Sequence record: NC_049951.1
DNA length: 41,969 nt
Direction: 5' to 3' (one strand)
Source: Enterobacteria phage O276
The position numbers and the translations under genes are program-made. Numbering within the stretch: the first letter of the stretch is position 1; each line of letters starts with the position of its first letter. Positions 23,908-38,976 of the stretch are shown piece by piece. The notes under the pieces are model-generated. The model did no database searches, was not told the origin of the DNA, and saw only the letters and a list, made by a program, of their open reading frames with translations.

Positions 23908-24202
23908 CGCAAAGTCTCCGCAATTACACGCAAGAAAAAACCGCCATCAGGCGGCTTGGTGTTCTTTCAGTTCTTCAATTCGAATATTGGTTACGTCTGC
24001 ATGTGCTATCTGCGCCCATATCATCCAGTGGTCGTAGCAGTCGTTGATGTTCTCCGCTTCGATAACTCTGTTGAATGGCTCTCCATTCCATTCTCCTGTG
24101 ACTCGGAAGTGCATTTATCATCTCCATAAAACAAAACCCGCCGTAGCGAGTTCAGATAAAATAAATCCCCGCGAGTGCGAGGATTGTTATGTAATATTGG
24201 GT

Positions 24203-24484
24203 TTAATCATCTATATGTTTTGTACAGAGAGGGCAAGTATCGTTTCCACCGTACTCGTGATAATAATTTTGCACGGTATCAGTCATTTCTCGCACATTGC
24301 AGAATGGGGATTTGTCTTCATTAGACTTATAAACCTTCATGGAATATTTGTATGCCGACTCTATATCTATACCTTCATCTACATAAACACCTTCGTGATG
24401 TCTGCATGGAGACAAGACACCGGATCTGCACAACATTGATAACGCCCAATCTTTTTGCTCAGACTCTAACTCATTGATACTCAT
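24203..24484 (-). CDS. ea8.5: Ea8.5 protein
   Basis: 93-aa ORF at lambda ea8.5 position. Confidence 0.85.
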   Translation of the reverse strand: MSINELESEQKDWALSMLCRSGVLSPCRHHEGVYVDEGIDIESAYKYSMKVYKSNEDKSPFCNVREMTDTVQNYYHEYGGNDTCPLCTKHIDD

Positions 24485-24675
24485 TTATAAACTCCTTGCA
24501 ATGTATGTCGTTTCAGCTAAACGGTATCAGCAATGTTTATGTAAAGAAACAGTAAGATAATACTCAACCCGATGTTTGAGTACGGTCATCATCTGACACT
24601 ACAGACTCTGGCATCGCTGTGAAGACGACGCGAAATTCAGCATTTTCACAAGCGTTATCTTTTACAAAACCGATC

Positions 24676-25224
24676 TCACTCTCCTTTGATGCGAATGCCA
24701 GCGTCAGACATCATATGCAGATACTCACCTGCATCCTGAACCCATTGACCTCCAACCCCGTAATAGCGATGCGTAATGATGTCGATAGTTACTAACGGGT
24801 CTTGTTCGATTAACTGCCGCAGAAACTCTTCCAGGTCACCAGTGCAGTGCTTGATAACAGGAGTCTTCCCAGGATGGCGAACAACAAGAAACTGGTTTCC
24901 GTCTTCACGGACTTCGTTGCTTTCCAGTTTAGCAATACGCTTACTCCCATCCGAGATAACACCTTCGTAATACTCACGCTGCTCGTTGAGTTTTGATTTT
25001 GCTGTTTCAAGCTCAACACGCAGTTTCCCTACTGTTAGCGCAATATCCTCGTTCTCCTGGTCGCGGCGTTTGATGTATTGCTGGTTTCTTTCCCGTTCAT
25101 CCAGCAGTTCCAGCACAATCGATGGTGTTACCAATTCATGGAAAAGGTCTGCGTCAAATCCCCAGTCGTCATGCATTGCCTGCTCTGCCGCTTCACGCAG
25201 TGCCTGAGAGTTAATTTCGCTCAC
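24676..25224 (-). CDS. ea22: Ea22 protein
   Basis: 182-aa coiled-coil-rich ORF at lambda ea22 position. Confidence 0.85.
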   Translation of the reverse strand: MSEINSQALREAAEQAMHDDWGFDADLFHELVTPSIVLELLDERERNQQYIKRRDQENEDIALTVGKLRVELETAKSKLNEQREYYEGVISDGSKRIAKLESNEVREDGNQFLVVRHPGKTPVIKHCTGDLEEFLRQLIEQDPLVTIDIITHRYYGVGGQWVQDAGEYLHMMSDAGIRIKGE

Positions 25225-25442
25225 TTCGAACCTCTCTGTTTACTGATAAGTTCCAGATCCTCCTGGCAACTTGCACAAGTCCGACAACCCTGAACGACCA
25301 GGCGTCTTCGTTCATCTATCGGATCGCCACACTCACAACAATGAGTGGCAGATATAGCCTGGTGGTTCAGGCGGCGCATTTTTATTGCTGTGTTGCGCTG
25401 TAATTCTTCTATTTCTGATGCTGAATCAATGATGTCTGCCAT
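25221..25442 (-). CDS. small C4 zinc-finger protein, TraR/DksA-like
   Basis: 73 aa with CxxC-x17-CxxC (CECG...CRTC); ATGA overlap with ea22 start suggests coupling. Confidence 0.5.
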   Translation of the reverse strand: MADIIDSASEIEELQRNTAIKMRRLNHQAISATHCCECGDPIDERRRLVVQGCRTCASCQEDLELISKQRGSK

Positions 25443-25667
25443 CTTTCATTAATCCCTGAACTGTTGGTTAATACGCTTGAGGGTGAATGCGAATAATAAA
25501 AAAGGAGCCTGTAGCTCCCTGATGATTTTGCTTTTCATGTTCATCGTTCCTTAAAGACGCCGTTTAACATGCCGATTGCCAGGCTTAAATGAGTCGGTGT
25601 GAATCCCATCAGCGTTACCGTTTCGCGGTGCTTCTTCAGTACGCTACGGCAAATGTCATCGACGTTT

Positions 25668-25853
25668 TTATCCGGAAACTGCTGTCTGGCTTTTTTTGAT
25701 TTCAGAATTAGCCTGACGGGCAATGCTGCGAAGGGCGTTTTCCTGCTGAGGTGTCATTGAACAAGTCCCATGTCGGCAAGCATAAGCACACAGAATATGA
25801 AGCCCGCTGCCAGAAAAATGCATTCCGTGGTTGTCATACCTGGTTTCTCTCAT
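25668..25853 (-). CDS. orf61: hypothetical protein orf61
   Basis: 61-aa ORF at lambda orf61 position. Confidence 0.7.
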   Translation of the reverse strand: MRETRYDNHGMHFSGSGLHILCAYACRHGTCSMTPQQENALRSIARQANSEIKKSQTAVSG

Positions 25854-26025
25854 CTGCTTCTGCTTTCGCCACCATCATTTCCAGCTTTTGTGAAAGGGAT
25901 GCGGCTAACGTATGAAATTCTTCGTCTGTTTCTACTGGTATTGGCACAAACCTGATTCCAATTTGAGCAAGGCTATGTGCCATCTCGATACTCGTTCTTA
26001 ACTCAACAGAAGATGCTTTGTGCAT
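25834..26025 (-). CDS. orf63: hypothetical protein orf63
   Basis: 63-aa ORF at lambda orf63 position. Confidence 0.7.
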   Translation of the reverse strand: MHKASSVELRTSIEMAHSLAQIGIRFVPIPVETDEEFHTLAASLSQKLEMMVAKAEADERNQV

Positions 26026-26180
26026 ACAGCCCCTCGTTTATTATTTATCTCCTCAGCCAGCCGCTGTGCTTTCAGTGGATTTCGGATAACAGAAAGGCCG
26101 GGAAATACCCAGCCTCGCTTTGTAACGGAGTAGACGAAAGTGATTGCGCCTACCCGGATATTATCGTGAGGATGCGTCAT
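25998..26180 (-). CDS. orf60a: hypothetical protein orf60a
   Basis: ORF ending 25998; lambda orf60a position. Confidence 0.65.
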
Positions 26181-26857
26181 CGCCATTGCTCCCCAAATAC
26201 AAAACCAATTTCAGCCAGTGCCTCGTCCATTTTTTCGATGAACTCCGGCACGATCTCGTCAAAACTCGCCATGTACTTTTCATCCCGCTCAATCACGACA
26301 TAATGCAGGCCTTCACGCTTCATACGCGGGTCATAGTTGGCAAAGTACCAGGCATTTTTTCGCGTCACCCACATGCTGTACTGCACCTGGGCCATGTAAG
26401 CTGACTTTATGGCCTCGAAACCACCGAGCCGGAACTTCATGAAATCCCGGGAGGTAAACGGGCATTTCAGTTCAAGGCCGTTGCCGTCACTGCATAAACC
26501 ATCGGGAGAGCAGGCGGTACGCATACTTTCGTCGCGATAGATGATCGGGGATTCAGTAACATTCACGCCGGAAGTGAATTCAAACAGGGTTCTGGCGTCG
26601 TTCTCGTACTGTTTTCCCCAGGCCAGTGCTTTAGCGTTAACTTCCGGAGCCACACCGGTGCAAACCTCAGCAAGCAGGGTGTGGAAGTAGGACATTTTCA
26701 TGTCAGGCCACTTCTTTCCGGAGCGGGGTTTTGCTATCACGTTGTGAACTTCTGAAGCGGTGATGACGCCGAGCCGTAATTTGTGCCACGCATCATCCCC
26801 CTGTTCGACAGCTCTCACATCGATCCCGGTACGCTGCAGGATAATGTCCGGTGTCAT
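26177..26857 (-). CDS. exo: exonuclease (Red alpha)
   Basis: 226 aa [31 protein letters not shown]... Confidence 0.97.
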
Positions 26858-27639
26858 GCTGCCACCTTCTGCTCTGCGGCTTTCTGTTTCAGGAATCCAA
26901 GAGCTTTTACTGCTTCGGCCTGTGTCAGTTCTGACGATGCACGAATGTCGCGGCGAAATATCTGGGAACAGAGCGGCAATAAGTCGTCATCCCATGTTTT
27001 ATCCAGGGCGATCAGCAGAGTGTTAATCTCCTGCATGGTTTCATCGTTAACCGGAGTGATGTCGCGTTCCGGCTGACGTTCTGCAGTGTATGCAGTATTT
27101 TCGACAATGCGCTCGGCTTCATCCTTGTCATAGATACCAGCAAATCCGAAGGCCAGACGGGCACACTGAATCATGGCTTTATGACGTAACATCCGTTTGG
27201 GATGCGACTGCCACGGCCCCGTGATTTCTCTGCCTTCGCGAGTTTTGAATGGTTCGCGGCGGCATTCATCCATCCATTCGGTAACGCAGATCGGATGATT
27301 ACGGTCCTTGCGGTAAATCCGGCATGTACAGGATTCATTGTCCTGCTCAAAGTCCATGCCATCAAACTGCTGGTTTTCATTGATGATGCGGGACCAGCCA
27401 TCAACGCCCACCACCGGAACGATGCCGTTCTGCTTATCAGGAAAGGCGTAAATTTCTTTCGTCCACGGATTAAGGCCGTACTGGTTGGCGACGATCAGCA
27501 ATGCGATGAACTGCGCATCGCTGGCATCACCTTTAAATGCCGTCTGGCGAAGAGTGGTGATCAGTTCCTGTGGGTCGACAGAATCCATGCCGACACGTTC
27601 AGCCAGCTTCCCAGCCAGCGTTGCGAGTGCTGTACTCAT
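26854..27639 (-). CDS. bet: Bet single-strand annealing protein (Red beta)
   Basis: 261 aa [36 protein letters not shown]... Confidence 0.97.
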
Positions 27640-27644
27640 CCGTT

Positions 27645-28061
27645 TTATACCTCTGAATCAATATCAACCTGATGGTGAGCAATGGTTTCAACCATGTACC
27701 GGATGTGTTCTGCCATGCGCTCCTGAAACTCAACATCGTCATCAAATGCACGGGTAATGGCTTTTTTGCTGGCCCCGCAGCGTTGTAAATGATCGATGCA
27801 GAGCGATTCAAACAAATGCTGGGGCAGGCCTTTTTCCATGTCGTCTGCCAGTTCTGCCTCTTTCTCTTCACGGGCGAGCTGCTGGTAGTGACGCGCCCAG
27901 CTCTGAGCCTCAAGACGATCCTGAATGTAATAAGCGTTCATGGCTGAACTCCTGAAATAGCTGTGAAAATATCGCCCGCGAAATGCCAGGCTGATTAGGA
28001 AAACAGGAAAGGGGGTTAGTGAATGCTTTTGCTTGATCTCAGTTTCAGCATTAATATCCAT
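27645..28061 (-). CDS. gam: Gam, RecBCD inhibitor
   Basis: 138 aa [32 protein letters not shown]... Confidence 0.95.
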
Positions 28062-28159
28062 TTTTTATAAGCGTCGACGGCTTCACGAAACATCTTTTCA
28101 TCGCCAATAAAAGTGGCGATAGTGAATTTAGTCTGGATAGCCATACGTGTTTGATCCAT
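28016..28159 (-). CDS. kil: Kil, host cell division inhibitor
   Basis: 47-aa [47 protein letters not shown] inside the longer track ORF. Confidence 0.85.
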
Positions 28160-28292
28160 TCTTTGGGACTCCTGGCTGATTAAGTATGTCGATAAGGCGT
28201 TTCCATCCGTCACGTAATTTACGGGTGATTCGTTCAAGTAAAGATTCGGAAGGGCAGCCAGCAACAGGCCACCCTGCAATGGCATATTGCAT
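28128..28292 (-). CDS. cIII: CIII, FtsH protease inhibitor
   Basis: 54-aa MQYAIAGWPVAGCPSESLLERITRKLRDGWKRLIDILNQPGVPK... Confidence 0.9.
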   Translation of the reverse strand: MQYAIAGWPVAGCPSESLLERITRKLRDGWKRLIDILNQPGVPKNGSNTYGYPD

Positions 28293-28364
28293 GGTGTGCT
28301 CCTTATTTATACATAACGAAAAACGCCTCGAGTGAAGCGTTATTGGTATGCGGTAAAACCGCAC

Positions 28365-28733
28365 TCAGGCGGCCTTGATAGTCATATCATCTGAATCAAA
28401 TATTCCTGATGTATCGATATCGGTAATTCTTATTCCTTCACTACCATCCATTGGAGGCCATCCTTCCTGACCATTTCCATCATCCCAGTCGAACTCACAA
28501 ACAACACCATATGCATTTAAGTCTTTCGAAATTGCTATAAGCAGAGCATGTTGCGCCAGCATGATTAATACAGCATTTAATAAAGAGCCGTGTTTATTGA
28601 GTCGGTATTCAGAGTCTGACCAGAAATTATTAATCTGGTGAAGTTTTTCCTCTGTCATTACGTCATGGTCGATTTCAATTTCTATTGATGCTTTCCAGTC
28701 GTAATCAATGATGTATTTTTTGATGTTTGACAT
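28365..28733 (-). CDS. ea10: Ea10 protein
   Basis: 122-aa ORF at lambda ea10 position. Confidence 0.85.
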   Translation of the reverse strand: MSNIKKYIIDYDWKASIEIEIDHDVMTEEKLHQINNFWSDSEYRLNKHGSLLNAVLIMLAQHALLIAISKDLNAYGVVCEFDWDDGNGQEGWPPMDGSEGIRITDIDTSGIFDSDDMTIKAA

Positions 28734-28854
28734 CTGTTCATATCCTCACAGATAAAAAATCGCCCTCACACTGGAGGGCAAAGAAGATTTCCAATAATCA
28801 GAACAAGTCGACTCCTGTTTAGTTACGAGCGACATTGCTCCGTGTATTCACTCG

Positions 28855-28863
28855 TTGGAATGA
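28855..28863 (+). repeat. 9-bp target-site duplication TTGGAATGA (left copy)
   Basis: Identical 9-mer immediately outside each IS inverted repeat. Confidence 0.9.
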
Positions 28864-29920
28864 GGCTTTGTTGAATAAATCAGATTTCGGGTAAGTCTCC
28901 CCCGTAGCGGGTTGTGTTTTCAGGCAATACGCACGCTTTCAGGCATACCTGCTTTCGTCATTTTGTTCAGCGCTCGTACCAGGGCCATAGCCTCTGCAAC
29001 CTGACCATCGTAGTCACGCAGTGTCAGTGAACCCCCGAACAGCTGTTTTACCCGGTACATCGCCGTTTCCGCTATCGAGCGACGGTTGTAATCTGTTGTC
29101 CATTTCCACCGCGCATTACTCCCGGTCATTCGCTGATTAGCCACTGCACGGTTACGGTCTGCATATTCACCGGGCCAGTAACCCGCACCTTTTCGGGGAG
29201 GGATAAGCGCGCTGATTTTCTTACGCCGCAGTTCATCGTGACATAGCCGGGTATCGTAAGCGCCATCGGCGGCGGCTGACCTGATTTTCCGGTGGGTTTG
29301 CCGGATTAACCCGGGGAAGGCCTCTGAGTCCGTAACGTTGTTCAGCGACAGGTCAGCGCAGATGATTTCATGTGTTTTACTGTCAACGGCGAGATGCAGC
29401 TTACGCCAGATACGGCGGCGTTCCTGGCCATGCTTTTTGACTTTCCACTCGCCTTCACCGAAGACCTTCAGCCCGGTGGAATCAATTACCAGGTGTGCGA
29501 TTTCACCCCGGGTGGGCGTTTTGAAACTGACATTAACCGACTTTGCCCGCCTGCTGACACAGCTGTAATCCGGGCAGCGTAGCGGAACGTTCATCAGAGA
29601 AAAAATGGAATCAATAAAGCCCTGCGCAGCGCGCAGGGTCAGCCTGAATACGCGTTTAATGACCAGCACAGTCGTGATGGCAAGGTCAGAATAGCGCTGA
29701 GGTCTGCCTCGTGAAGAAGGTGTTGCTGACTCATACCAGGCCTGAATAGCTTCATCATCCAGCCAGAAAGTTATGGAGCCACGGTTGATGAGGGCTTTAT
29801 TGTAGGTGGGCCAGTTGGTGATTTTGAACTTTTGCTTTGCCACGGAACGGTCTGCGTTGTCGGGAAGATACGTGATCTGATCCTTCAACTCAGCAAAAGT
29901 TCGATTTATTCAACAAAGCC
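28864..29920 (-). mobile_element. IS903: IS903-family insertion sequence (IS5 family), 1057 bp
   Basis: Perfect 18-bp terminal inverted repeats GGCTTTGTTGAATAAATC at 28864..28881 and 29903..29920; one transposase ORF; 9-bp TSD. Confidence 0.93.
28920..29843 (-). CDS. tnp: IS903 transposase (DDE, IS5 family), 307 aa from GTG start
   Basis: ...VAKQKFKITNWPTYNKALINRGSITFWLDDEAIQAWY...; track ORF runs 15 codons further upstream to 29888. Confidence 0.9.
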   Translation of the reverse strand: MAKQKFKITNWPTYNKALINRGSITFWLDDEAIQAWYESATPSSRGRPQRYSDLAITTVLVIKRVFRLTLRAAQGFIDSIFSLMNVPLRCPDYSCVSRRAKSVNVSFKTPTRGEIAHLVIDSTGLKVFGEGEWKVKKHGQERRRIWRKLHLAVDSKTHEIICADLSLNNVTDSEAFPGLIRQTHRKIRSAAADGAYDTRLCHDELRRKKISALIPPRKGAGYWPGEYADRNRAVANQRMTGSNARWKWTTDYNRRSIAETAMYRVKQLFGGSLTLRDYDGQVAEAMALVRALNKMTKAGMPESVRIA

Positions 29921-29929
29921 TTGGAATGA
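29921..29929 (+). repeat. 9-bp target-site duplication TTGGAATGA (right copy)
   Basis: Direct repeat of 28855..28863. Confidence 0.9.
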
Positions 29930-29957
29930 ATACACAGTGCAGTGTTTATTCTGTTGT

Positions 29958-29989
29958 TTGCGTGAAAATGAAACCCGCCTGAGCGGGTT
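29958..29989 (-). terminator. intrinsic terminator at the 3' end of nun
   Basis: AACCCGC-tcag-GCGGGTT hairpin followed by a T-rich run on the minus strand; overlaps the nun stop. Confidence 0.55.
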
Positions 29990-30326
29990 ATGACCACTTT
30001 TTGTTTGGGTTTCGCTGGTGAGCGTGATTAACAACTCTGTGCATTACATCCTCATATTTTTCATCTTCAATTTTTTCGACATCGCGAGGAAATGGTGTTG
30101 CTAATGCTTTGTCAACTTTGTCCATTGGGTCTTCATTAATCTTATATTCAGGACCGTCATCTATAGCATTAAATCCAGGTGTCACACCGTTTTTTAATGC
30201 ATATGCTATCCTTTTTTCCCATCTCGCTATTCTCCTCCTGTCTCGAGATGTAAGACCTCTATCAGATACTTTTCTGTTTTGTCCGCTGTCAGGATTAACA
30301 TAAATAGTCTTTTTCACCATAAGCAT
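29988..30326 (-). CDS. nun: Nun transcription-termination factor (HK022-type, arginine-rich motif); alternative ATG at 30320
   Basis: ARM DRGLTSRDRRRIARWEKRIAYALKNG and C-terminal ...NPNKKWS with penultimate Trp. Confidence 0.8.
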   Translation of the reverse strand: MLMVKKTIYVNPDSGQNRKVSDRGLTSRDRRRIARWEKRIAYALKNGVTPGFNAIDDGPEYKINEDPMDKVDKALATPFPRDVEKIEDEKYEDVMHRVVNHAHQRNPNKKWS

Positions 30327-30584
30327 ACCCAATAAGCACCGTACGGTAGTTTACTGTACAATTTTATTTTTTGGACTGCATGTATTTTGTTTCCTAATGG
30401 GTTTGAATCTTTGCAATAAATACTTCTATTTTTTCGAACGACTTCTATATCAAAAAGCTGCTTTGCTTTTTGTGACTAAAAGCAAAAAAGCCTTCTCGCT
30501 AATGAGCAGCATTGCCGTTCATCCTGAACCCGCCGCGCTCCCGACGCATGGTTTAAAGACGCGCCGTTCGTCTATGGGCTTATG

Positions 30585-30684
30585 ATGTACTTAAAGTTCA
30601 TTAATGTAAAGTACCAATAGTACATTTTATGGGTATAAAAAGCTCACTACATCATAAGTTAGTGAACTTTAAGGAAATTTATTT
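30585..30684 (-). promoter_or_regulatory. left operator/promoter region (OL/pL-type) for the heterologous repressor
   Basis: Repeated TTAAAGTTCA / TGAACTTTAA half-site palindromes just beyond the cI stop, upstream of the leftward operon. Confidence 0.5.
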
Positions 30685-31392
30685 TTATCCGAATCGCTTG
30701 TAATCGATTGACTGCCTAATGAGGACTTTGGCTAGAATGTGAAGTTGCTCTTCTTCACCTTCTTCTATGTACCATCGATCATAAGCGGCATTGTCAGAGA
30801 TGACGGCAAGCCTGTTCTTTTGCATTTGCAGGCGCTTAACGTGCATTGTTTTCCCGTATACAAACACATAAATGCCATCGCCATCAAAACAGGTTATGGA
30901 TACAACAACAAAGATCTCATCTCCCGGATTGATGGTTCCCTCCATGCTGTCACCGCGAACCGTGATGACTTTTACGCTTTCCTGTGGCCTTCCATTAAAT
31001 AAAATTCTTGCCTGCTCGGTCGTATATTCAATTGCTCTTATCTTTTCTATAAATTCATTGGAAACCATGGTTCCTGGCCCGGCGCTCGCCTGAACATCCA
31101 ATACATCAACACGATAATAATCATTTGATCTTGATAGATGATTTACCGTGATACCGTCATCATCAGCATAGCCATGCAGATATGCAGCAGTAGTTCCCAG
31201 CACCGAAGCCAGAGATTCCATCTTGTCTTTTCTTGGTATTGACTCCCCGTTGAACCATTTACTAATGGCTTTTGGTGTGACCTTAAGCCTGACAGCTAAA
31301 TCAGCCTGCCTACCATGCAAAGGTAATCCCGCTTTATCACAGGCCAGCGCAAGCCTCTGCGAGAAAGTTTCACGCTCTTTCTGTTGAACCAT
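30685..31392 (-). CDS. cI: CI-type repressor (HTH + LexA-like S24 peptidase domain), non-lambda allele
   Basis: HTH ...GRQADLAVRLKVTPKAISKWFNGE...; C-terminal GDSM...K; start chosen at M56 of the track ORF because upstream residues overlap PR and cro. Confidence 0.8.
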   Translation of the reverse strand: MVQQKERETFSQRLALACDKAGLPLHGRQADLAVRLKVTPKAISKWFNGESIPRKDKMESLASVLGTTAAYLHGYADDDGITVNHLSRSNDYYRVDVLDVQASAGPGTMVSNEFIEKIRAIEYTTEQARILFNGRPQESVKVITVRGDSMEGTINPGDEIFVVVSITCFDGDGIYVFVYGKTMHVKRLQMQKNRLAVISDNAAYDRWYIEEGEEEQLHILAKVLIRQSIDYKRFG

Positions 31393-31457
31393 AAGTTCAA
31401 CTATATTAGGTATTGACTGTACTATCAGTTCCGTCATAATATGAACCATAAGTTCAC
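31385..31457 (+). promoter_or_regulatory. OR-type operator/promoter region: two copies of the 15-bp palindrome TGAACCATAAGTTCA flanking PR (-35 TTGACT, -10 TAATAT); divergent PRM-like -10 TAATAT
   Basis: Palindromes at 31385..31399 and 31443..31457; TTGACT 31413..31418, TAATAT 31437..31442; reverse-strand TAATAT at 31403..31408. Confidence 0.7.
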
Positions 31458-31471
31458 CACAGGAGAGAAGC

Positions 31472-31702
31472 ATGAACGAAGTTACGTTTGGAGAAGTTAT
31501 CAAATCCGTTCGAGTTTCTGTTGTGGCTGATGTTTGTGGACTTACGCCAAAAGCCATCTATAAGTGGCTTGAGCGTGGTTCTCTGCCGCGTACCGAGTTC
31601 ACTGGTGAAACCGAATATGCGGATAAGATCGCCAAGGCATCAGGCGGCAAGTACTCAGCAGCACAGATTCGCCGTATCGGTAAACAGCAGTTTGTTATGT
31701 AA
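31472..31702 (+). CDS. cro: Cro-type repressor, non-lambda allele
   Basis: 76-aa HTH protein just downstream of PR; AGGAGA SD. Confidence 0.8.
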   Translation: MNEVTFGEVIKSVRVSVVADVCGLTPKAIYKWLERGSLPRTEFTGETEYADKIAKASGGKYSAAQIRRIGKQQFVM

Positions 31703-31823
31703 TAAAAATGTACTTTTAGTACCGAACGGCCCGGTATACGGTCGGGTGCCCGGCGTGGTCAAGGATGACTGTCAATGGTGCACGATAAAAACCCAAATTA
31801 TTTACCTATGGAGATAGTAAGAA

Positions 31824-32120
31824 ATGACACAAACAAGTTACAGCAAGCCAACACAGCGAGAAATTGATCGCGCTGAAACTGATTTACTCATCAACCTGTC
31901 AACGCTTACCCAGCGCGGTCTGGCAAAGATGATTGGCTGTCATGAATCGAAGATAAGCAGAACGGACTGGAGATTTATTGCTTCGGTCTTGTGTGCTTTC
32001 GGAATGGCATCAGACATCAGTCCGATTAGCAGGGCTTTTAAGTATGCGCTTGATGAAATCACAAAGAAAAAATCCCCGGCCGCCACCGAGGATTTTAAGC
32101 AAATTGATATGCAATTCTGA
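31824..32120 (+). CDS. cII: CII-type transcriptional activator, non-lambda allele
   Basis: 98 aa; C-terminal ...KKSPAATEDFKQIDMQF resembles lambda CII ...KKRPAATERSEQIQMEF. Confidence 0.8.
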   Translation: MTQTSYSKPTQREIDRAETDLLINLSTLTQRGLAKMIGCHESKISRTDWRFIASVLCAFGMASDISPISRAFKYALDEITKKKSPAATEDFKQIDMQF

Positions 32121-32152
32121 GGGAATTACTGGATCTATCAACAGGAGTCATT

Positions 32153-33052
32153 ATGACAAATACAGCAAAAATACTCAACTTCGGCAGAGGTAACTTTGCC
32201 GGACAGGAGCGTAATGTGGCAGATCTCGATGATGGTTACGCCAGACTATCAAATATGCTGCTTGAGGCTTATTCGGGCGCAGATCTGACCAAGCGACAGT
32301 TTAAAGTGCTGCTTGCCATTCTGCGTAAAACCTATGGGTGGAATAAACCAATGGACAGAATCACCGATTCTCAACTTAGCGAGATTACAAAGTTACCTGT
32401 CAAACGGTGCAATGAAGCCAAGTTAGAACTCGTCAGAATGAATATTATCAAGCAGCAAGGCGGCATGTTTGGACCAAATAAAAACATCTCAGAATGGTGT
32501 ATCCCTCAAAACGAGGGAAAATCCCCTAAAACGAGGGATAAAACATCCCTCAAATTGGGGGATTGCTATCCCTCAAAACAGGGGGACACAAAAGACACTA
32601 TTACAAAAGAAAAAAGAAAAGATTATTCGTCCGAGAATTCTGGCGAATCCTCTGACCAGCCAGAAAACGATCTTTCTGTGGTTAAACCGGATGCTGCAAT
32701 TCAGAGCGGCAGCAAGTGGGGAACAGCAGAAGACCTGACCGCCGCAGAGTGGATGTTTGACATGGTGAAGACCATCGCGCCATCAGCCAGAAAACCGAAT
32801 TTTGCTGGGTGGGCTAACGATATCCGCCTGATGCGTGAACGTGACGGACGTAACCACCGCGATATGTGTGTGCTTTTCCGCTGGGCCTGCCAGGACAACT
32901 TCTGGTCCGGTAACGTGCTGAGTCCGGCCAAACTCCGCGACAAGTGGACCCAGCTCGAAATCAACCGTAACAAGCAACAGGCAGGCGTGACAGCCAGCAA
33001 ACCAAAACTCGACCTGACAAACACTGACTGGATTTACGGGGTGGATTTATGA
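32153..33052 (+). CDS. O: replication initiator O
   Basis: 299 aa MTNTAKILNFGRGNFAGQERNVADLDDGYARLSNMLLEAYSGADLTKRQFK... Confidence 0.97.
   Translation: MTNTAKILNFGRGNFAGQERNVADLDDGYARLSNMLLEAYSGADLTKRQFKVLLAILRKTYGWNKPMDRITDSQLSEITKLPVKRCNEAKLELVRMNIIKQQGGMFGPNKNISEWCIPQNEGKSPKTRDKTSLKLGDCYPSKQGDTKDTITKEKRKDYSSENSGESSDQPENDLSVVKPDAAIQSGSKWGTAEDLTAAEWMFDMVKTIAPSARKPNFAGWANDIRLMRERDGRNHRDMCVLFRWACQDNFWSGNVLSPAKLRDKWTQLEINRNKQQAGVTASKPKLDLTNTDWIYGVDL
32500..32630 (+). repeat. ori: ori lambda: four about 19-bp iterons (ATCCCTCAAAACGAGGGA type) plus AT-rich region, inside O
   Basis: Four tandem imperfect palindromic repeats then an A-rich stretch. Confidence 0.92.
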
Positions 33053-33750
33053 AAAACATCGCCGCACAGATGGTTAACTTTGACCGTGAGCAGATGCGTC
33101 GGATCGCCAACAACATGCCGGAACAGTACGACGAAAAGCCGCAGGTACAACAGGTAGCGCAGATCATCAATGGTGTGTTCAGCCAGTTACTGGCAACTTT
33201 CCCGGCGAGTCTGGCTAACCGGGACCAGAACGAACTGAACGAAATCCGCCGCCAGTGGGTGCTGGCTTTCCGGGAAAACGGGATCACCACAATGGAACAG
33301 GTTAACGCAGGAATGCGCGTAGCCCGTCGGCAGAATCGACCATTTCTGCCATCACCCGGGCAGTTTGTTGCATGGTGCCGGGAAGAAGCATCCGTTATCG
33401 CCGGACTGCCAAACGTCAGCGAGCTGGTTGATATGGTTTACGAGTATTGCCGGAAGCGAGGCCTGTATCCGGATGCGGAGTCTTATCCGTGGAAATCAAA
33501 CGCGCACTACTGGCTGGTTACCAACCTGTATCAGAACATGCGGGCCAATGCGCTTACTGATGCGGAATTACGCCGTAAGGCCGCAGATGAGCTTGTCCAT
33601 ATGACTGCGAGAATTAACCGTGGTGAGGCGATCCCTGAACCAGTAAAACAACTTCCTGTCATGGGCGGTAGACCTCTAAATCGTGCACAGGCTCTGGCGA
33701 AGATCGCAGAAATCAAAGCTAAGTTCGGACTGAAAGGAGCAAGTGTATGA
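33049..33750 (+). CDS. P: replication protein P (DnaB helicase loader)
   Basis: 233 aa MKNIAAQMVNFDREQMRRIANNMPEQYDEKPQVQQ... Confidence 0.97.
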   Translation: MKNIAAQMVNFDREQMRRIANNMPEQYDEKPQVQQVAQIINGVFSQLLATFPASLANRDQNELNEIRRQWVLAFRENGITTMEQVNAGMRVARRQNRPFLPSPGQFVAWCREEASVIAGLPNVSELVDMVYEYCRKRGLYPDAESYPWKSNAHYWLVTNLYQNMRANALTDAELRRKAADELVHMTARINRGEAIPEPVKQLPVMGGRPLNRAQALAKIAEIKAKFGLKGASV

Positions 33751-34037
33751 CGGGCAAAGAGGCAATTATTCATTACCTGGGGACGCATAATAGCTTCTGT
33801 GCGCCGGACGTTGCCGCGCTAACAGGCGCAACAGTAACCAGCATAAATCAGGCCGCGGCTAAAATGGCACGGGCAGGTCTTCTGGTTATCGAAGGTAAGG
33901 TCTGGCGAACGGTGTATTACCGGTTTGCTACCAGGGAAGAACGGGAAGGAAAGATGAGCACGAACCTGATTTTTAAGGAGTGTCGCCAGAGTGCCGCGAT
34001 GAAACGGGTATTGGCGGTATATGGAGTTAAAAGATGA
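33747..34037 (+). CDS. ren: Ren protein
   Basis: 96-aa ORF, ATGA overlap with P. Confidence 0.9.
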   Translation: MTGKEAIIHYLGTHNSFCAPDVAALTGATVTSINQAAAKMARAGLLVIEGKVWRTVYYRFATREEREGKMSTNLIFKECRQSAAMKRVLAVYGVKR

Positions 34038-34110
34038 CCATCTACATCACTGAGCTAATAACAGGCCTGCTGGTAATCGCAGGCCTTTTTATTTGGGGGA
34101 GAGGGAAGTC

Positions 34111-34551
34111 ATGAAAAAACTAACCTTTGAAATTCGATCTCCAGCACATCAGCAAAACGCTATTCACGCGGTACAGCAAATTCTTCCAGACCCAACCAAA
34201 CCAATCGTAGTAACCATTCAGGAACGCAACCGCAGCTTAGACCAGAATCGAAAGCTTTGGGCTTGCCTTGGTGACGTCTCTCGTCAGGTTGAATGGCATG
34301 GTCGCTGGCTGGATGCAGAAAGCTGGAAGTGTGTGTTTACCGCAGCATTAAAGCAGCAGGATGTTGTTCCTAACCTTGCCGGGAATGGCTTTGTGGTAAT
34401 AGGCCAGTCAACCAGCAGGATGCGTGTAGGCGAATTTGCGGAGCTATTAGAGCTTATACAGGCATTCGGTACAGAGCGTGGCGTTAAGTGGTCAGACGAA
34501 GCGAGACTGGCTCTGGAGTGGAAAGCGAGATGGGGAGACAGGGCTGCATGA
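34111..34551 (+). CDS. ninB: NinB (Orf) recombination mediator
   Basis: MKKLTFEIRSPAHQQNAIHAVQQILPDPTKP... Confidence 0.9.
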   Translation: MKKLTFEIRSPAHQQNAIHAVQQILPDPTKPIVVTIQERNRSLDQNRKLWACLGDVSRQVEWHGRWLDAESWKCVFTAALKQQDVVPNLAGNGFVVIGQSTSRMRVGEFAELLELIQAFGTERGVKWSDEARLALEWKARWGDRAA

Positions 34552-35420
34552 TAAATGTCGTTAGTTTCTCCGGTGGCAGGACGTCAGCATATTTGCTCTG
34601 GCTAATGGAGCAAAAGCGACGGGCAGGTAAAGACGTGCATTACGTTTTCATGGATACAGGTTGTGAACATCCAATGACATATCGGTTTGTCAGGGAAGTT
34701 GTGAAGTTCTGGGATATACCGCTCACCGTATTGCAGGTTGATATCAACCCGGAGCTTGGACAGCCAAATGGTTATACGGTATGGGAACCAAAGGATATTC
34801 AGACGCGAATGCCTGTTCTGAAGCCATTTATCGATATGGTAAAGAAATATGGCACTCCATACGTCGGCGGCGCGTTCTGCACTGACAGATTAAAACTCGT
34901 TCCCTTCACCAAATACTGTGATGACCATTTCGGGCGAGGGAATTACACCACGTGGATTGGCATCAGAGCTGATGAACCGAAGCGGCTAAAGCCAAAGCCT
35001 GGAATCAGATATCTTGCTGAACTGTCAGACTTTGAGAAGGAAGATATCCTCGCATGGTGGAAGCAACAACCATTCGATTTGCAAATACCGGAACATCTCG
35101 GTAACTGCATATTCTGCATTAAAAAATCAACGCAAAAAATCGGACTTGCCTGCAAAGATGAGGAGGGATTGCAGCGTGTTTTTAATGAGGTCATCACGGG
35201 ATCCCATGTGCGTGACGGACATCGGGAAACGCCAAAGGAGATTATGTACCGAGGAAGAATGTCGCTGGACGGTATCGCGAAAATGTATTCAGAAAATGAT
35301 TATCAAGCCCTGTATCAGGACATGGTACGAGCTAAAAGATTCGATACCGGCTCTTGTTCTGAGTCATGCGAAATATTTGGAGGGCAGCTTGATTTCGACT
35401 TCGGGAGGGAAGCTGCATGA
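34548..35420 (+). CDS. ninC: NinC
   Basis: [42 protein letters not shown]... (PAPS-reductase-like SGG motif). Confidence 0.9.
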
Positions 35421-35590
35421 TGCGATGTTATCGGTGCGGTGAATGCAAAGAAGATAACCGCTTCCGACCAAATCAACCTTACTGGAATCGATGGTGTCTC
35501 CGGTGTGAAAGAACACCAACAGGGGTGTTACCACTACCGCAGGAAAAGGAGGACGTGTGGCGAGACAGCGACGAAGTATCACCGACATAA
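35417..35590 (+). CDS. ninD: NinD (small Cys-rich protein)
   Basis: 57-codon [22 protein letters not shown]... translated by hand; below the track length cutoff. Confidence 0.75.
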
Positions 35591-35739
35591 TCTGCGAAAA
35601 CTGCAAATACCTTCCAACGAAACGCACCAGAAATAAACCCAAGCCAATCCCAAAAGAATCTGACGTAAAAACCTTCAACTACACGGCTCACCTGTGGGAT
35701 ATCCGGTGGCTAAGACGTCGTGCGAGGAAAACAAGGTGA
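35557..35739 (+). CDS. ninE: NinE
   Basis: 60-aa ORF at lambda ninE position. Confidence 0.8.
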
Positions 35740-35906
35740 TTGACCAAAATCGAAGTTACGAACAAGAAAGCGTCGAGCGAGCTTTAACGTGCGCTAACTG
35801 CGGTCAGAAGCTGCATGTGCTGGAAGTTCACGTGTGTGAGCACTGCTGCGCAGAACTGATGAGCGATCCGAATAGCTCGATGCACGAGGAAGAAGATGAT
35901 GGCTAA
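35736..35906 (+). CDS. ninF: NinF (GTG start)
   Basis: [56 protein letters not shown]. Confidence 0.8.
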
Positions 35907-36510
35907 ACCAGCGCGAAGACGATGTAAAAACGATGAATGCCGGGAATGGTTTCACCCTGCATTCGCTAATCAGTGGTGGTGCTCTCCAGAGTGTGGAACC
36001 AAGATAGCACTCGAACGACGAAGTAAAGAACGCGAAAAAGCGGAAAAAGCAGCAGAGAAGAAACGACGACGAGAGGAGCAGAAACAGAAAGATAAACTTA
36101 AGATTCGAAAACTCGCCTTAAAGCCCCGCAGTTACTGGATTAAACAAGCCCAACAAGCCGTAAACGCCTTCATCAGAGAAAGAGACCGCGACTTACCATG
36201 TATCTCGTGCGGAACGCTCACGTCTGCTCAGTGGGATGCCGGACATTACCGGACAACTGCTGCGGCACCTCAACTCCGATTTAATGAACGCAATATTCAC
36301 AAGCAATGCGTGGTGTGCAACCAGCACAAAAGCGGAAATCTCGTTCCGTATCGCGTCGAACTGATTAGCCGCATCGGGCAGGAAGCAGTAGACGAAATCG
36401 AATCAAACCATAACCGCCATCGCTGGACTATCGAAGAGTGCAAGGCGATCAAGGCAGAGTACCAACAGAAACTCAAAGACCTGCGAAATAGCAGAAGTGA
36501 GGCCGCATGA
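35896..36510 (+). CDS. ninG: NinG (Rap) Holliday-junction resolvase-like
   Basis: 204-aa ORF with Cys clusters. Confidence 0.9.
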
Positions 36511-36713
36511 CGTTCTCAGTAAAAACCATTCCAGACATGCTCGTTGAAGCATACGGAAATCAGACAGAAGTAGCACGCAGACTGAAATGTAGTCGCGGTA
36601 CGGTCAGAAAATACGTTGATGATAAAGACGGGAAAATGCACGCCATCGTCAACGACGTTCTCATGGTTCATCGCGGATGGAGTGAAAGAGATGCGCTATT
36701 ACGAAAAAATTGA
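36507..36713 (+). CDS. ninH: NinH
   Basis: 68-aa ORF at lambda ninH position. Confidence 0.85.
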
Positions 36714-37356
36714 TGGCAGCAAATACCGAAATATTTGGGTAGTTGGCGATCTGCACGGATGCTACACGAACCTGATGAACAAACTGGATACGATTGGATT
36801 CGACAACAAAAAAGACCTGCTTATCTCGGTGGGCGATTTGGTTGATCGTGGTGCAGAGAACGTTGAATGCCTGGAATTAATCACATTCCCCTGGTTCAGA
36901 GCTGTACGTGGAAACCATGAGCAAATGATGATTGATGGCTTATCAGAGCGTGGAAACGTTAATCACTGGCTGCTTAATGGCGGTGGCTGGTTCTTTAATC
37001 TCGATTACGACAAAGAAATTCTGGCTAAAGCTCTTGCCCATAAAGCAGATGAACTTCCGTTAATCATCGAACTGGTGAGCAAAGATAAAAAATATGTTAT
37101 CTGCCACGCCGATTATCCCTTTGACGAATACGAGTTTGGAAAGCCAGTTGATCATCAGCAGGTAATCTGGAACCGCGAACGAATCAGCAACTCACAAAAC
37201 GGGATCGTGAAAGAAATCAAAGGCGCGGACACGTTCATCTTTGGTCATACGCCAGCAGTGAAACCACTCAAGTTTGCCAACCAAATGTATATCGATACCG
37301 GCGCAGTGTTCTGCGGAAACCTAACATTGATTCAGGTACAGGGAGAAGGCGCATGA
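36691..37356 (+). CDS. ninI: NinI Ser/Thr protein phosphatase
   Basis: [25 protein letters not shown]... calcineurin-like GDLHG / GDLVDRG / GNHE motifs. Confidence 0.92.
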
Positions 37357-37976
37357 GACTCGAAAGCGTAGCTAAATTTCATTCGCCAAAAAGCCCGATG
37401 ATGAGCGACTCACCACGGGCCACGGCTTCTGACTCTCTTTCCGGTACTGATGTGATGGCTGCTATGGGGATGGCGCAATCACAAGCCGGATTCGGTATGG
37501 CTGCATTCTGCGGTAAGCACGAACTCAGCCAGAACGACAAACAAAAGGCTATCAACTATCTGATGCAATTTGCACACAAGGTATCGGGGAAATACCGTGG
37601 TGTGGCAAAGCTTGAAGGAAATACTAAGGCAAAGGTACTGCAAGTGCTCGCAACATTCGCTTATGCGGATTATTGCCGTAGTGCCGCGACGCCGGGGGCA
37701 AGATGCAGAGATTGCCATGGTACAGGCCGTGCGGTTGATATTGCCAAAACAGAGCTGTGGGGGAGAGTTGTCGAGAAAGAGTGCGGAAGATGCAAAGGCG
37801 TCGGCTATTCAAGGATGCCAGCAAGCGCAGCATATCGCGCTGTGACGATGCTAATCCCAAACCTTACCCAACCCACCTGGTCACGCACTGTTAAGCCGCT
37901 GTATGACGCTCTGGTGGTGCAATGCCACAAAGAAGAGTCAATCGCAGACAACATTTTGAATGCGGTCACACGTTAG
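37353..37976 (+). CDS. Q: late antiterminator Q
   Basis: 207-aa ORF with Zn-binding CRDCHGTG...CGRCKG. Confidence 0.95.
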
Positions 37977-38008
37977 CAGCATGATTGCCACGGATGGCAA
38001 CATATTAA

Positions 38009-38037
38009 CGGCATGATATTGACTTATTGAATAAAAT
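38009..38037 (+). promoter_or_regulatory. late promoter pR' (-35 TTGACT, -10 TAAATT) with qut region
   Basis: TTGACT at 38009..38014, 17-bp spacer, TAAATT at 38032..38037, directly after Q. Confidence 0.85.
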
Positions 38038-38188
38038 TGGGTAAATTTGACTCAACGATGGGTTAATTCGCTCGTTGTGGTAGTGAGATGAAAAGAGGCG
38101 GCGCTTACTACCGATTCCGCCTAGTTGGTCACTTCGACGTATCGTCTGGAACTCCAACCATCGCAGGCAGAGAGGTCTGCAAAATGCA

Positions 38189-38248
38189 ATCCCGAAACAG
38201 TTCGCAGGTAATAGTTAGAGCCTGCATAACGGTTTCGGGATTTTTTAT
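38189..38248 (+). terminator. tR' terminator ending the short pR' (6S) transcript
   Basis: Long inverted repeat AATCCCGAAAC...GTTTCGGGATT followed by TTTTTT. Confidence 0.85.
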
Positions 38249-38652
38249 ATCTGCACAACAGGTAAGAGCATTGAGTCGATAATCGTGAAGAGTCGGCGAG
38301 CCTGGTTAGCCAGTGCTCTTTCCGTTGTGCTGAATTAAGCGAATACCGGAAGCAGAACCGGATCACCAAATGCGTACAGGCGTCATCGCCGCCCAGCAAC
38401 AGCACAACCCAAACTGAGCCGTAGCCACTGTCTGTCCTGAATTCATTAGTAATAGTTACGCTGCGGCCTTTTACACATGACCTTCGTGAAAGCGGGTGGC
38501 AGGAGGTCGCGCTAACAACCTCCTGCCGTTTTGCCCGTGCATATCGGTCACGAACAAATCTGATTACTAAACACAGTAGCCTGGATTTGTTCTATCAGTA
38601 ATCGACCTTATTCCTAATTAAATAGAGCAAATCCCCTTATTGGGGGTAAGAC

Positions 38653-38976
38653 ATGAAGATGCCAGAAAAACATGACCTGTTGGCCGCCATTCTCGCGGCA
38701 AAGGAACAAGGCATCGGGGCAATCCTTGCGTTTGCAATGGCGTACCTTCGCGGCAGATATAATGGCGGTGCGTTTACAAAAACAGTAATCGACGCAACGA
38801 TGTGCGCCATTATCGCCTGGTTCATTCGTGACCTTCTCGACTTCGCCGGACTAAGTAGCAATCTCGCTTATATAACGAGCGTGTTTATCGGCTACATCGG
38901 TACTGACTCGATTGGTTCGCTTATCAAACGCTTCGCTGCTAAAAAAGCCGGAGTAGAAGATGGTAGAAATCAATAA
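38653..38976 (+). CDS. S: holin/antiholin S (S107 from 38653; S105 from Met3 at 38659)
   Basis: [34 protein letters not shown]... dual-start Met-Lys-Met. Confidence 0.97.

What the first reader, a model, noticed from the sequence alone, without database searches (positions are those of the whole stretch)
28855..29929. IS903-family element inserted in the pL operon between ea10 and the immunity region
The element is exactly 1057 bp with perfect 18-bp inverted repeats (GGCTTTGTTGAATAAATC) and one 307-aa DDE transposase from a GTG start. It is flanked by a 9-bp direct repeat TTGGAATGA, and the flanks read continuously as lambda ea10-ral intergenic sequence once the IS and one TSD copy are removed. 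That marks a simple transposition into phage DNA. The transposase is on the same strand as pL transcription and lies between the promoter and cIII, kil, gam, bet, exo, xis and int, so polarity on those genes is possible.
Basis: seen in the sequence. Interest (0 to 1): 0.6.

Follow-up and report, generated by a model that had tools for sequence, protein, structure and literature searches.

The report
Known IS903 copy in lambda/HK022 hybrid
The feature is a real, intact IS903-type jumping gene, but it is the long-known copy that phage HK022 carries next to its nun gene, passed by recombination into the published laboratory hybrid phage O276, so it is ordinary apart from lying 23 bases from a recently described phage small RNA.

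Summary
A 1057-bp element lies at 28864-29920, with perfect 18-bp inverted repeats, a 307-aa GTG-start DDE transposase on the minus strand, and a 9-bp duplication, TTGGAATGA.

It is not new. The window is the full genome of the laboratory hybrid phage O276 (MH547045; King & Perez 2018). The element is base-for-base the IS903 annotated at the same site in phage HK022. It entered the hybrid with the HK022 nun-cI-cro-cII block, through a crossover in the 42 bp just left of it. It did not transpose into this genome.

The gene upstream of it is nun, not ral. HK022 pL and putL lie upstream, and put-modified polymerase is reported to read through intrinsic and Rho-dependent terminators at least 10 kb away.

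Two observations appear to be new:
- The IS ends 23 nt upstream of the 5' end of the homologue of the lambda sRNA PreS/LPR1. It splits the hairpin at whose base that 5' end maps.
- The "lambda" DNA on both sides of the HK022 block is really phage 21-type.

Verdict: already known, low interest.

The parts
28864..29920 (-). IS903 (IS903B-type) insertion sequence, 1057 bp. The transposase reads on the minus strand.
   Evidence: Searches show the element. It is identical to the HK022 AF069308 copy, which NC_002166 annotates as 'insertion sequence IS903' at 26601-27657. It matches 1057/1057 to many copies that PGAP names 'IS5-like element IS903B family transposase'.
29903..29920 (.). Terminal inverted repeat next to the transposase start (IRL by convention)
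   Evidence: GGCTTTGTTGAATAAATC, 18/18 with the other end.
28864..28881 (.). Terminal inverted repeat at the transposase-distal end (IRR)
28920..29843 (-). Transposase gene: 307 aa, GTG start, TGA stop
   Evidence: Searches give the ORF. Pfam finds DDE_Tnp_1_5 and DDE_Tnp_1. NCBIfam NF033579, IS5 family, scores 357.6 bits against a cut-off of 140. The exact protein is in a 25,127-member cluster named IS903B family transposase and was seen on at least 1000 contigs. D121, D193 and E259 are present.
28855..28863 (.). Target-site duplication, left copy: TTGGAATGA
   Evidence: A single copy is present in lambda, phage 21 and HK75.
29921..29929 (.). Target-site duplication, right copy: TTGGAATGA
29988..30320 (-). 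HK022 nun, the gene immediately promoter-proximal to the IS
   Evidence: One search gives the ORF. AF069308 annotates Nun at 27725-28057, which corresponds to window 29988-30320.
29972..29989 (-). Terminator-like hairpin just after nun, upstream of the IS in pL sense
   Evidence: AACCCGCTCAGGCGGGTT followed by TCATTTTCAC. This is a consensus match only.
30504..30566 (-). putL antiterminator RNA element
   Evidence: 63/63 identical to the putL site annotated in HK75.
30582..30610 (-). HK022 pL promoter
   Evidence: 28/29 to the annotated pL of HK75. One search finds a promoter-like site at the same place. The X16093 pL -10 and -35 annotations map here.
28753..28840 (-). Homologue of lambda sRNA PreS/LPR1, 88 nt. 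Its 3' end is the tL2a terminator hairpin at 28760-28781. Its 5' end lies 23 nt from the IS end.
   Evidence: Primer sequences in Table S5 of bioRxiv 10.1101/2024.10.31.621285 were mapped onto the window. The copy is 87/88 to lambda and identical to phage 21. One search finds the terminator.
28832..28853 (.). 3' arm (in pL-sense RNA) of a conserved hairpin that the IS splits. PreS +1 lies inside it.
   Evidence: inverted repeat I2; uninterrupted lambda RNA folds at -24.9 kcal/mol, z = -5.2.
29924..29945 (.). 5' arm (in pL-sense RNA) of the same hairpin, now 1066 nt away
   Evidence: predicts that the arms still pair across the IS.
28812..28853 (.). Interval holding the crossover between phage-21-type and HK022 DNA that brought the IS into the hybrid
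   Evidence: 28811 carries the phage 21 allele and 28854 carries the HK022 allele.
29620..29638 (-). Terminator-like hairpin inside the transposase gene, on the pL-sense strand
   Evidence: CCCTGCGCGCTGCGCAGGG followed by CTTTATTGAT. This is a consensus match only.
28365..28733 (-). ea10, the first protein gene downstream of the IS in pL sense. It is the phage 21 allele.
   Evidence: (DUF2528).

Best explanation
The element is an intact IS903 (IS903B-type) insertion sequence of the IS5 family. It once transposed into the nun-cIII intergenic region of phage HK022 or a recent ancestor, producing the usual 9-bp duplication. The window is the laboratory hybrid phage O276. O276 received the IS passively, together with the HK022 block nun-pL/putL-cI(ts12)-cro-putR-cII, by homologous recombination in the 42 identical bases just left of the IS.

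Shown here: the anatomy of the element, its identity to the HK022 copy, the empty sites in relatives, and the mosaic map.

Inferred:
- The DDE transposase binds the 18-bp ends and joins them to 9-bp staggered target cuts.
- pL transcripts become termination-resistant through putL RNA. They therefore cross nun, the 1057-bp IS in the sense direction of its transposase, the PreS/tL2a region, and continue into ea10, cIII, kil, gam, bet, exo, xis and int.
- The IS therefore exerts little polarity on those genes.
For: Identity of the window:
- It is 41,969 bp with 50.68% GC.
- It has the extra G at 14267.
- Its deletions are 3177 bp (b519) and 1995 bp (b515).
- All of this is as published for O276, MH547045.
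- The paper itself places the left crossover 'between genes cIII and IS903'.

Identity of the element:
- It is identical to HK022 AF069308 26601-27657, which is annotated IS903.
- It is also in the 1989 record X16093.
- The filled-junction 33-mer occurs only in HK022 among 2.9 million viral contigs, and in none of 185,579 species-representative genomes.
- The empty-site 33-mer occurs in at least 120 viral contigs and 18 genome contigs.

Family assignment:
- Pfam and NCBIfam both place the transposase in the IS5 family.
- The element is 100% identical to copies annotated as IS903B family, and 99.5% to the 'IS903' of phage P7.
- A 9-bp duplication is reported for IS903 and IS903B (PMC2577343; PMC13618097).

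Crossover and transcription:
- The crossover interval comes from informative sites.
- putL and pL are present upstream.
- The properties of put antitermination are from PMC9378689.
Against: Nothing contradicts the identification. The following steps are not shown here:
- No expression data exist for readthrough across the IS.
- Transposase activity of this copy is untested.
- ISfinder could not be consulted, so the choice between the names IS903 and IS903B rests on GenBank and PGAP naming.
- The target site matches the published preferred motif WTTYA-N9-TRAAW at only 5 of 10 positions, and 24% of window positions score as well. That motif is a preference, not a requirement.
Confidence: 0.96

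Rival explanations
1. The IS transposed afresh into the hybrid or its lambda parent in the laboratory, as the first reader's phrase 'simple transposition into phage DNA' could imply for this genome.
For: The anatomy alone (inverted repeats plus duplication) fits any recent transposition. IS903B copies identical to this one are common in E. coli.
Against: HK022 has the same copy at the same base with the same duplication in three records, dating from 1989 onward. An independent hit at the same 9 bp by an identical copy is not credible. DNA from 28854 rightwards is HK022 by informative sites.
Confidence: 0.01
2. The IS is an assembly artefact, with host IS reads joined into the phage contig.
For: O276 was assembled from short single-end Ion Torrent reads. 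IS903B is abundant in enterobacterial genomes.
Against: The same junctions are in independently sequenced HK022 records, X16093 and AF069308. A precise 9-bp duplication is not what a chimeric join produces. From my own knowledge, the propagation host MG1655 has no IS903; this was not tested here.
Confidence: 0.01
3. The IS is strongly polar. Its internal and flanking terminators and its poorly translated transposase gene would cut pL transcription and starve cIII, kil, gam, bet, exo, xis and int.
For: Terminator-like hairpins lie on the pL-sense strand after nun (29972-29989), inside the transposase gene (29620-29638) and at tL2a (28760-28781). About 1 kb of weakly translated RNA is a plausible Rho substrate (inference).
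Against: HK022 pL and putL lie upstream. Put-mediated antitermination is described as efficient, as suppressing both intrinsic and Rho-dependent termination, and as persisting at least 10 kb (PMC9378689). O276 is viable and was used to demonstrate that antitermination. HK022 itself keeps its cIII, kil and recombination genes behind the same IS. Some partial attenuation cannot be excluded.
Confidence: 0.12
4. The IS alters production of the PreS-type sRNA. It separates the two arms of the hairpin at whose base the PreS 5' end maps, so 5'-end formation in HK022 and O276 would be lost, shifted, or would depend on a long-range helix formed across the IS.
For: - PreS +1 is at window 28840, 23 nt from the IS end.
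- In lambda that nucleotide pairs at the base of a 14-bp perfect stem. The hairpin folds at -24.9 kcal/mol with z = -5.2.
- No sigma-70-like promoter lies upstream in lambda. PreS is made only in the lytic cycle. Both facts fit processing from the pL transcript.
- The fold of the 1221-nt readthrough RNA keeps the old stem, stacked on a 19-bp helix formed by the two IS ends.
Against: The way the PreS 5' end is made has not been published, and the preprint names no RNase. The fold is a prediction for a 1.2-kb RNA and carries no covariation support. The 88-nt PreS sequence and its seed are intact, so the sRNA may be made normally.
Confidence: 0.25

Closest known systems
IS903 of phage HK022 (NC_002166 26601-27657; AF069308; X16093, Oberto et al. 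1989)
   Same: It is the same element: 1057/1057 identical to AF069308, with the same insertion point, orientation and 9-bp duplication.
   Different: Only the DNA to its left differs. In the window it is phage 21/lambda-type (PreS, ea10) from 28811 leftwards, rather than HK022 cIII-kil. X16093 differs at IS nt 399-400 (GC versus CG), probably an old sequencing error.
Phage O276, MH547045 (King & Perez 2018, PMC6256539)
   Same: Length, GC content, the G insertion at 14267, both b deletions, the cI change and the HK022 gene content all match. The paper names IS903 and places the left crossover between cIII and IS903.
   Different: The record itself was not in the searchable collections, so the identification rests on the published description. 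The paper says all other genes come from lambda. The sequence shows phage 21 alleles at 27427-28811 and 32136-34269.
IS903 / IS903B / IS102 group of the IS5 family
   Same: It shares the 1057-bp length, the 18-bp perfect inverted repeats, the 9-bp duplication and the single 307-aa DDE transposase. It is 100% identical to copies annotated as IS903B family and 99.5% to the IS903 of P7, with 5 nt and 1 aa (P110S) differences.
   Different: None detected. The ISfinder isoform name could not be checked.
Lambda sRNA PreS/LPR1 locus (bioRxiv 10.1101/2024.10.31.621285)
   Same: The 88-nt sequence ending at tL2a is present just downstream of the IS. It is 87/88 to lambda, with the seed region unchanged.
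   Different: In lambda the sRNA is preceded by an intact hairpin and ral. Here and in HK022 the IS end lies 23 nt upstream and the 5' arm of the hairpin is 1066 nt away. The preprint does not mention HK022 or IS903.

Membership tests
IS903 group, IS5 family | Element length of about 1057 bp | tested here: met
   The element is 1057 bp, the same length as the annotated IS903 of HK022 and P7.
IS903 group, IS5 family | Perfect 18-bp terminal inverted repeats GGCTTTGTTGAATAAATC | tested here: met
   The ends are 18/18 complementary and identical to the ends of the annotated IS903 copies.
IS903 group, IS5 family | 9-bp target-site duplication | tested here: met
   TTGGAATGA is present twice. A 9-bp duplication is reported for IS903 and IS903B (PMC2577343; PMC13618097). 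Single-copy empty sites exist in relatives.
IS903 group, IS5 family | Single DDE transposase of about 307 aa belonging to the IS5 family | tested here: met
   Pfam finds PF13737 and PF01609. NCBIfam NF033579 scores 357.6 bits against a cut-off of 140. The exact protein is named IS903B family transposase.
IS903 group, IS5 family | Catalytic D, D, E residues | tested here: met
   D, D and E are present at positions 121, 193 and 259. The position numbers come from my own recollection of the IS903 literature, not from a paper read here.
IS903 group, IS5 family | High nucleotide identity to named reference copies | tested here: met
   It is 100% identical to copies annotated as IS903B family on plasmids and E. 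coli chromosomes, and 99.5% to the IS903 of P7.
IS903 group, IS5 family | ISfinder assignment and isoform name (IS903, IS903B or IS102) | not testable with these tools
   ISfinder is not available here. Naming rests on GenBank and PGAP annotation.
IS903 group, IS5 family | Preferred target motif WTTYA-N9-TRAAW (a preference, not a requirement) | tested here: not met
   The site matches 5 of 10 positions, and 24% of window positions score at least as well. The motif is from PMC2577343.
IS903 group, IS5 family | Transposition activity of this copy | not testable with these tools
   Only sequence integrity can be shown. The protein is identical to a very widespread variant.
HK022-type put RNA antitermination (context of the IS) | putL sequence just downstream of pL, upstream of the IS | tested here: met
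   It is 63/63 identical to the annotated putL of HK75, at 30504-30566. pL is at 30582-30610. No Rfam family for put matched.
HK022-type put RNA antitermination (context of the IS) | Readthrough of terminators in and around the IS | not testable with these tools
   This is inferred from PMC9378689 and from the viability of O276.
PreS/LPR1 sRNA | 88-nt sequence with seed region, ending at the tL2a terminator hairpin and U tail | tested here: met
   It lies at window 28840 to 28753 and is 87/88 to lambda, differing by C30U, the phage 21 allele. The seed and terminator are unchanged.
PreS/LPR1 sRNA | Expression and Hfq binding in O276 or HK022 | not testable with these tools
   No expression data are available.

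The most novel reading that the evidence does not exclude
HK022 and O276 may be natural variants in which PreS sRNA biogenesis is changed by the IS. The IS903 lies 23 nt upstream of the PreS 5' end and splits the hairpin at whose base that end maps. In antiterminated pL transcripts, the old hairpin arms plus the two IS ends are predicted to form a helix of about 33 bp closing a 1-kb loop. This resembles the processing stems that flank rRNAs. Cleavage there would release both the PreS 5' end and a discrete transposase mRNA. That would couple transposase supply and sRNA production to prophage induction.
Probability: 0.1. Interest if true: 0.4.

Novelty: already known. Interest (0 to 1): 0.13.

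Why it matters
As an IS insertion it matters little. It has been known since the HK022 immunity region was sequenced in 1989. It is annotated in GenBank and is named in the O276 genome announcement.

Three practical points remain.
1. This case shows how a mobile element can look like a fresh insertion in a genome when it was in fact inherited by recombination from a parent.
2. Anyone using O276 or HK022 to study left-operon expression should know that the IS lies immediately upstream of the homologue of the newly described PreS sRNA. PreS supports phage DNA replication through host dnaN. These phages could therefore serve as ready-made material to test how the PreS 5' end is formed.
3. O276 is a three-parent mosaic (lambda, 21, HK022), not a two-parent one. 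Its O, P, ren, gam, kil, cIII and ea10 genes are phage 21 alleles.

Tried and rejected
- **Rfam, window 27500-33000, gathering threshold.** It found only the cIII thermometer. No family covers put RNA, PreS or the split hairpin.
- **Rfam, lambda 33850-34150, E-value mode.** It gave only chance-level hits (rliE, RyhB; E about 0.4).
- **IS903 target motif WTTYA-N9-TRAAW.** The site is unremarkable, so target preference does not explain it.
- **Sigma-70 promoter scans.** None lies upstream of PreS in lambda. None lies at the outward-facing IS end in the window. I therefore dropped the idea that the IS end supplies or destroys a PreS promoter.
- **A misreading I corrected.** I first took window 28811 (A) for a private mutation that creates a SalI site. 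One search showed it is simply the phage 21 allele.
- **Papers not held.** Hu & Derbyshire 1998 (IS903 target choice) and King et al. 2000 (nun promoters) were unavailable. Oberto 1989/1993 and Juhala 2000 are also not in the library. Statements about them come from the King & Perez text, from GenBank annotation, or from my own knowledge.
- **Technical.** The first two run_python attempts failed only because several loci are stored in one FASTA file.
- **Not used.** Protein-homologue, structure-prediction and metagenome searches were not needed.

Full report
**1. The observation**

Reading the region and scanning it for repeats shows a 1057-bp element at 28864-29920.
- Its two ends are the same 18 bases, GGCTTTGTTGAATAAATC, in inverted orientation. 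They are 18/18 complementary, and similarity falls away immediately inside them.
- The 9-mer TTGGAATGA abuts both ends, at 28855-28863 and 29921-29929.
- The only long ORF is on the minus strand. From the GTG at 29843 to the TGA at 28920 it encodes 307 aa.
- The protein matches Pfam DDE_Tnp_1_5 and DDE_Tnp_1. It matches the NCBIfam IS5-family model NF033579 at 357.6 bits against a cut-off of 140.
- D, D and E are present at positions 121, 193 and 259, where I recall the IS903 catalytic residues to lie. The position numbers are from memory.

**2. What the window is**

The window is lambda from cos to cos, with two b-region deletions and a foreign block. A literature search for HK022 plus IS903 returned one paper, King & Perez 2018 (PMC6256539). 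It describes the laboratory hybrid phage O276 (MH547045). I checked its details against the window:
- The length is 41,969 bp and the GC content is 50.7%. The window is 41,969 bp with 50.68% GC.
- There is a single extra G at 14,267. This is present.
- The b519 deletion is 3,177 bp and the b515 deletion is 1,995 bp. Both match once the 14-bp and 10-bp junction overlaps are counted.
- The hybrid carries HK022 cIts12. The only HK022-block difference outside the crossover zones is nt 30905, which gives D163V in cI.

The window is O276.

**3. Where the IS came from**

HK022 carries the same element.
- NC_002166 annotates 'insertion sequence IS903' at 26601-27657, and AF069308 annotates its transposase.
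- The window copy is identical to that copy over all 1057 bp.
- The 1989 immunity-region record X16093 contains it too. It differs only at IS nt 399-400 (GC versus CG), probably an old sequencing error.

Informative sites bracket the left crossover. Position 28811 carries the phage 21 allele. Position 28854, one base before the duplication, carries the HK022 allele. The IS therefore entered the hybrid through a crossover in the 42 identical bases at 28812-28853. This agrees with the paper's statement that the crossover lay 'between genes cIII and IS903'.

The insertion is private to HK022.
- The 33-mer spanning the filled left junction occurs once in 2.9 million viral contigs. That contig is 40,751 bp long, the length of the HK022 genome, so I take it to be HK022.
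- It occurs in none of 185,579 species-representative genomes.
- Lambda, phage 21 and HK75 show the empty site with one copy of the 9-mer.

So this was a simple transposition, but into HK022 or a recent ancestor, not into this genome.

**4. Family**

The element is 100% identical over its full length to many plasmid and chromosomal copies that PGAP names 'IS5-like element IS903B family transposase'.
- At least 5000 plasmid records hold a match.
- 1994 of 5426 complete E. coli genomes hold a match.
- It is 99.5% identical to the 'IS903' of phage P7, differing at 5 nt and 1 aa, P110S.
- The exact protein sits in a cluster of 25,127 sequences and was seen on at least 1000 contigs.
- The 9-bp duplication is the one reported for IS903 and IS903B (PMC2577343; PMC13618097).

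The published target preference, WTTYA-N9-TRAAW, is matched at only 5 of 10 positions. That is no better than 24% of positions in the window. ISfinder could not be consulted.

**5. Context and likely behaviour**

In pL sense (minus strand) the order is:
1. pL, 30610-30582
2. putL, 30566-30504
3. nun, 30320-29988
4. a terminator-like hairpin, 29989-29972
5. IS903, 29920-28864, with its transposase at 29843-28920 on the same strand
6. the PreS/tL2a region
7. ea10, then cIII, kil, gam, bet, exo, xis and int

 The promoter-side neighbour is therefore nun, not ral. Only 39 bp of the right flank is lambda-like, at 38/39.

There are terminator-like hairpins before, inside (29638-29620) and after the IS. 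This operon, however, starts with putL. Put RNA makes RNA polymerase resistant to both intrinsic and Rho-dependent termination. The effect persists for at least 10 kb and needs no phage protein (PMC9378689). O276 was built to demonstrate exactly this, and it is viable. I infer that polarity is probably small. This was not measured.

**6. One observation that appears to be new**

A review (PMC12197685) led to a preprint describing the lambda sRNA PreS/LPR1 (bioRxiv 10.1101/2024.10.31.621285). According to that preprint:
- The sRNA lies between ea10 and ral.
- It is about 88 nt long and is processed to about 68 nt.
- It ends at terminator tL2a and depends on Hfq.
- It is made only in the lytic cycle.
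- It activates host dnaN and supports phage DNA replication.

The authors' primers (Table S5) place it at lambda 34011 to 33924. That corresponds to window 28840 to 28753.
- The O276 copy is 87/88 to lambda. The one change, C30U, is the phage 21 allele, and the seed is untouched.
- The HK022 copy differs at 5 nt, all in the terminator loop or tail.
- The IS end at 28864 is only 23 nt upstream of PreS +1.

In uninterrupted lambda, +1 pairs at the base of a 14-bp perfect stem. The hairpin spans lambda 34003-34050, with a folding energy of -24.9 kcal/mol and z = -5.2 against shuffles. The IS separates the two arms of that hairpin by 1066 nt (repeat I2). No sigma-70-like promoter precedes PreS in lambda. 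This fits processing from the pL transcript, though the preprint names no RNase.

Folding the 1221-nt readthrough RNA predicts that the old arms still pair across the IS. They stack on a 19-bp helix made by the two IS ends, in both the minimum-energy and the centroid structures. Whether this changes PreS production is unknown. It is a prediction without covariation or expression support. The preprint does not mention HK022 or IS903.

**7. A second side result**

The 'lambda' DNA next to the HK022 block is phage 21-type.
- Window 27427-28811 (3' end of bet, gam, kil, cIII, ea10, most of PreS) carries the phage 21 allele at all 25 sites where lambda and 21 differ.
- Window 32136-34269 (O, P, ren, 5' end of ninB) carries phage 21 alleles throughout. 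Over 32125-34300 it is 100% identical to phage 21 and 98.3% to lambda.
- The adjoining stretches, 22000-27399 and 34301-38999, are 100% lambda.

O276 is therefore a lambda/21/HK022 mosaic. Presumably its lambda parent had imm21 ancestry. The published description says all non-HK022 genes come from lambda.

**8. Verdict**

The element and its presence in this very genome are already published and annotated, so novelty is 'already known' and interest is low. The PreS adjacency and the phage 21 segments are small additions that others can check.

Noticed in passing
window 27427-28811 and 32136-34269: The arms flanking the HK022 block carry phage 21 alleles, not lambda alleles. The left arm has the phage 21 allele at 25 of 25 informative sites. 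The right arm is 100% identical to phage 21 and 98.3% to lambda. Crossovers to true lambda lie at 27338-27426 (in bet) and 34270-34428 (in ninB). The published description of O276 says all remaining genes come from lambda.
   Followed up: yes
window 28753-28840 (minus strand): A homologue of the lambda sRNA PreS/LPR1 lies 23 nt downstream of the IS end. The IS splits the conserved hairpin at whose base the PreS 5' end maps. The predicted readthrough RNA re-forms that stem across the IS, stacked on a helix formed by the two IS ends.
   Followed up: partly
window 32125-32135: The right-hand HK022-to-phage-21 crossover, at the cII/O boundary, falls in only 11 bases of perfect identity. The flanking similarity is merely patchy. 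This is an unusually short exchange interval.
   Followed up: partly
window 19775-19788 and 20738-20747: Both b deletions have short junction homologies. b519 (3177 bp) joins at an imperfect 14-bp repeat, ATCC(GG/AA)ATGAAGCC. b515 (1995 bp) joins at a perfect 10-bp repeat, GTCATAAAAC. Both fit microhomology-mediated deletion.
   Followed up: partly
window 14267: There is an extra G relative to reference lambda, as the O276 paper notes. It extends the K reading frame upstream: the ORF is 14133-14876, against lambda K at 14276-14875. The reference lambda annotation of K may therefore be truncated, or the reference may carry a 1-nt error or variant here.
   Followed up: no
window 30905: This is the single difference from HK022 inside cI. 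It gives D163V and is presumably the cIts12 allele mentioned in the O276 paper.
   Followed up: partly
L146 (X16093), IS nt 399-400 (window 29262-29263): The 1989 HK022 record reads CG where AF069308 and the window read GC. This is probably a sequencing error in the old record.
   Followed up: no
L130, L134, L144 and other genome-contig hits: The lambda ea10-ral 33-mer occurs on contigs of about 48.4-48.5 kb in assemblies of Shewanella, Pseudomonas, Neobacillus, Kitasatospora and others. This is most likely lambda control-DNA contamination of those assemblies, not prophages.
   Followed up: no
window 29620-29638 (minus strand): A GC-rich hairpin, CCCTGCGCGCTGCGCAGGG followed by CTTTATTGAT, lies inside the transposase gene on its sense strand. 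It could act as a weak intrinsic terminator or attenuator for transposase or readthrough transcripts. It is only a consensus match.
   Followed up: no
window 39085, 39897, 39900, 39931, 40055: Five scattered differences from reference lambda lie in the R-Rz-bor region. At least one of them appears to be shared with a sequenced lambda imm21 stock, judging only from mismatch counts (4 versus 5). These are probably laboratory-strain polymorphisms.
   Followed up: no
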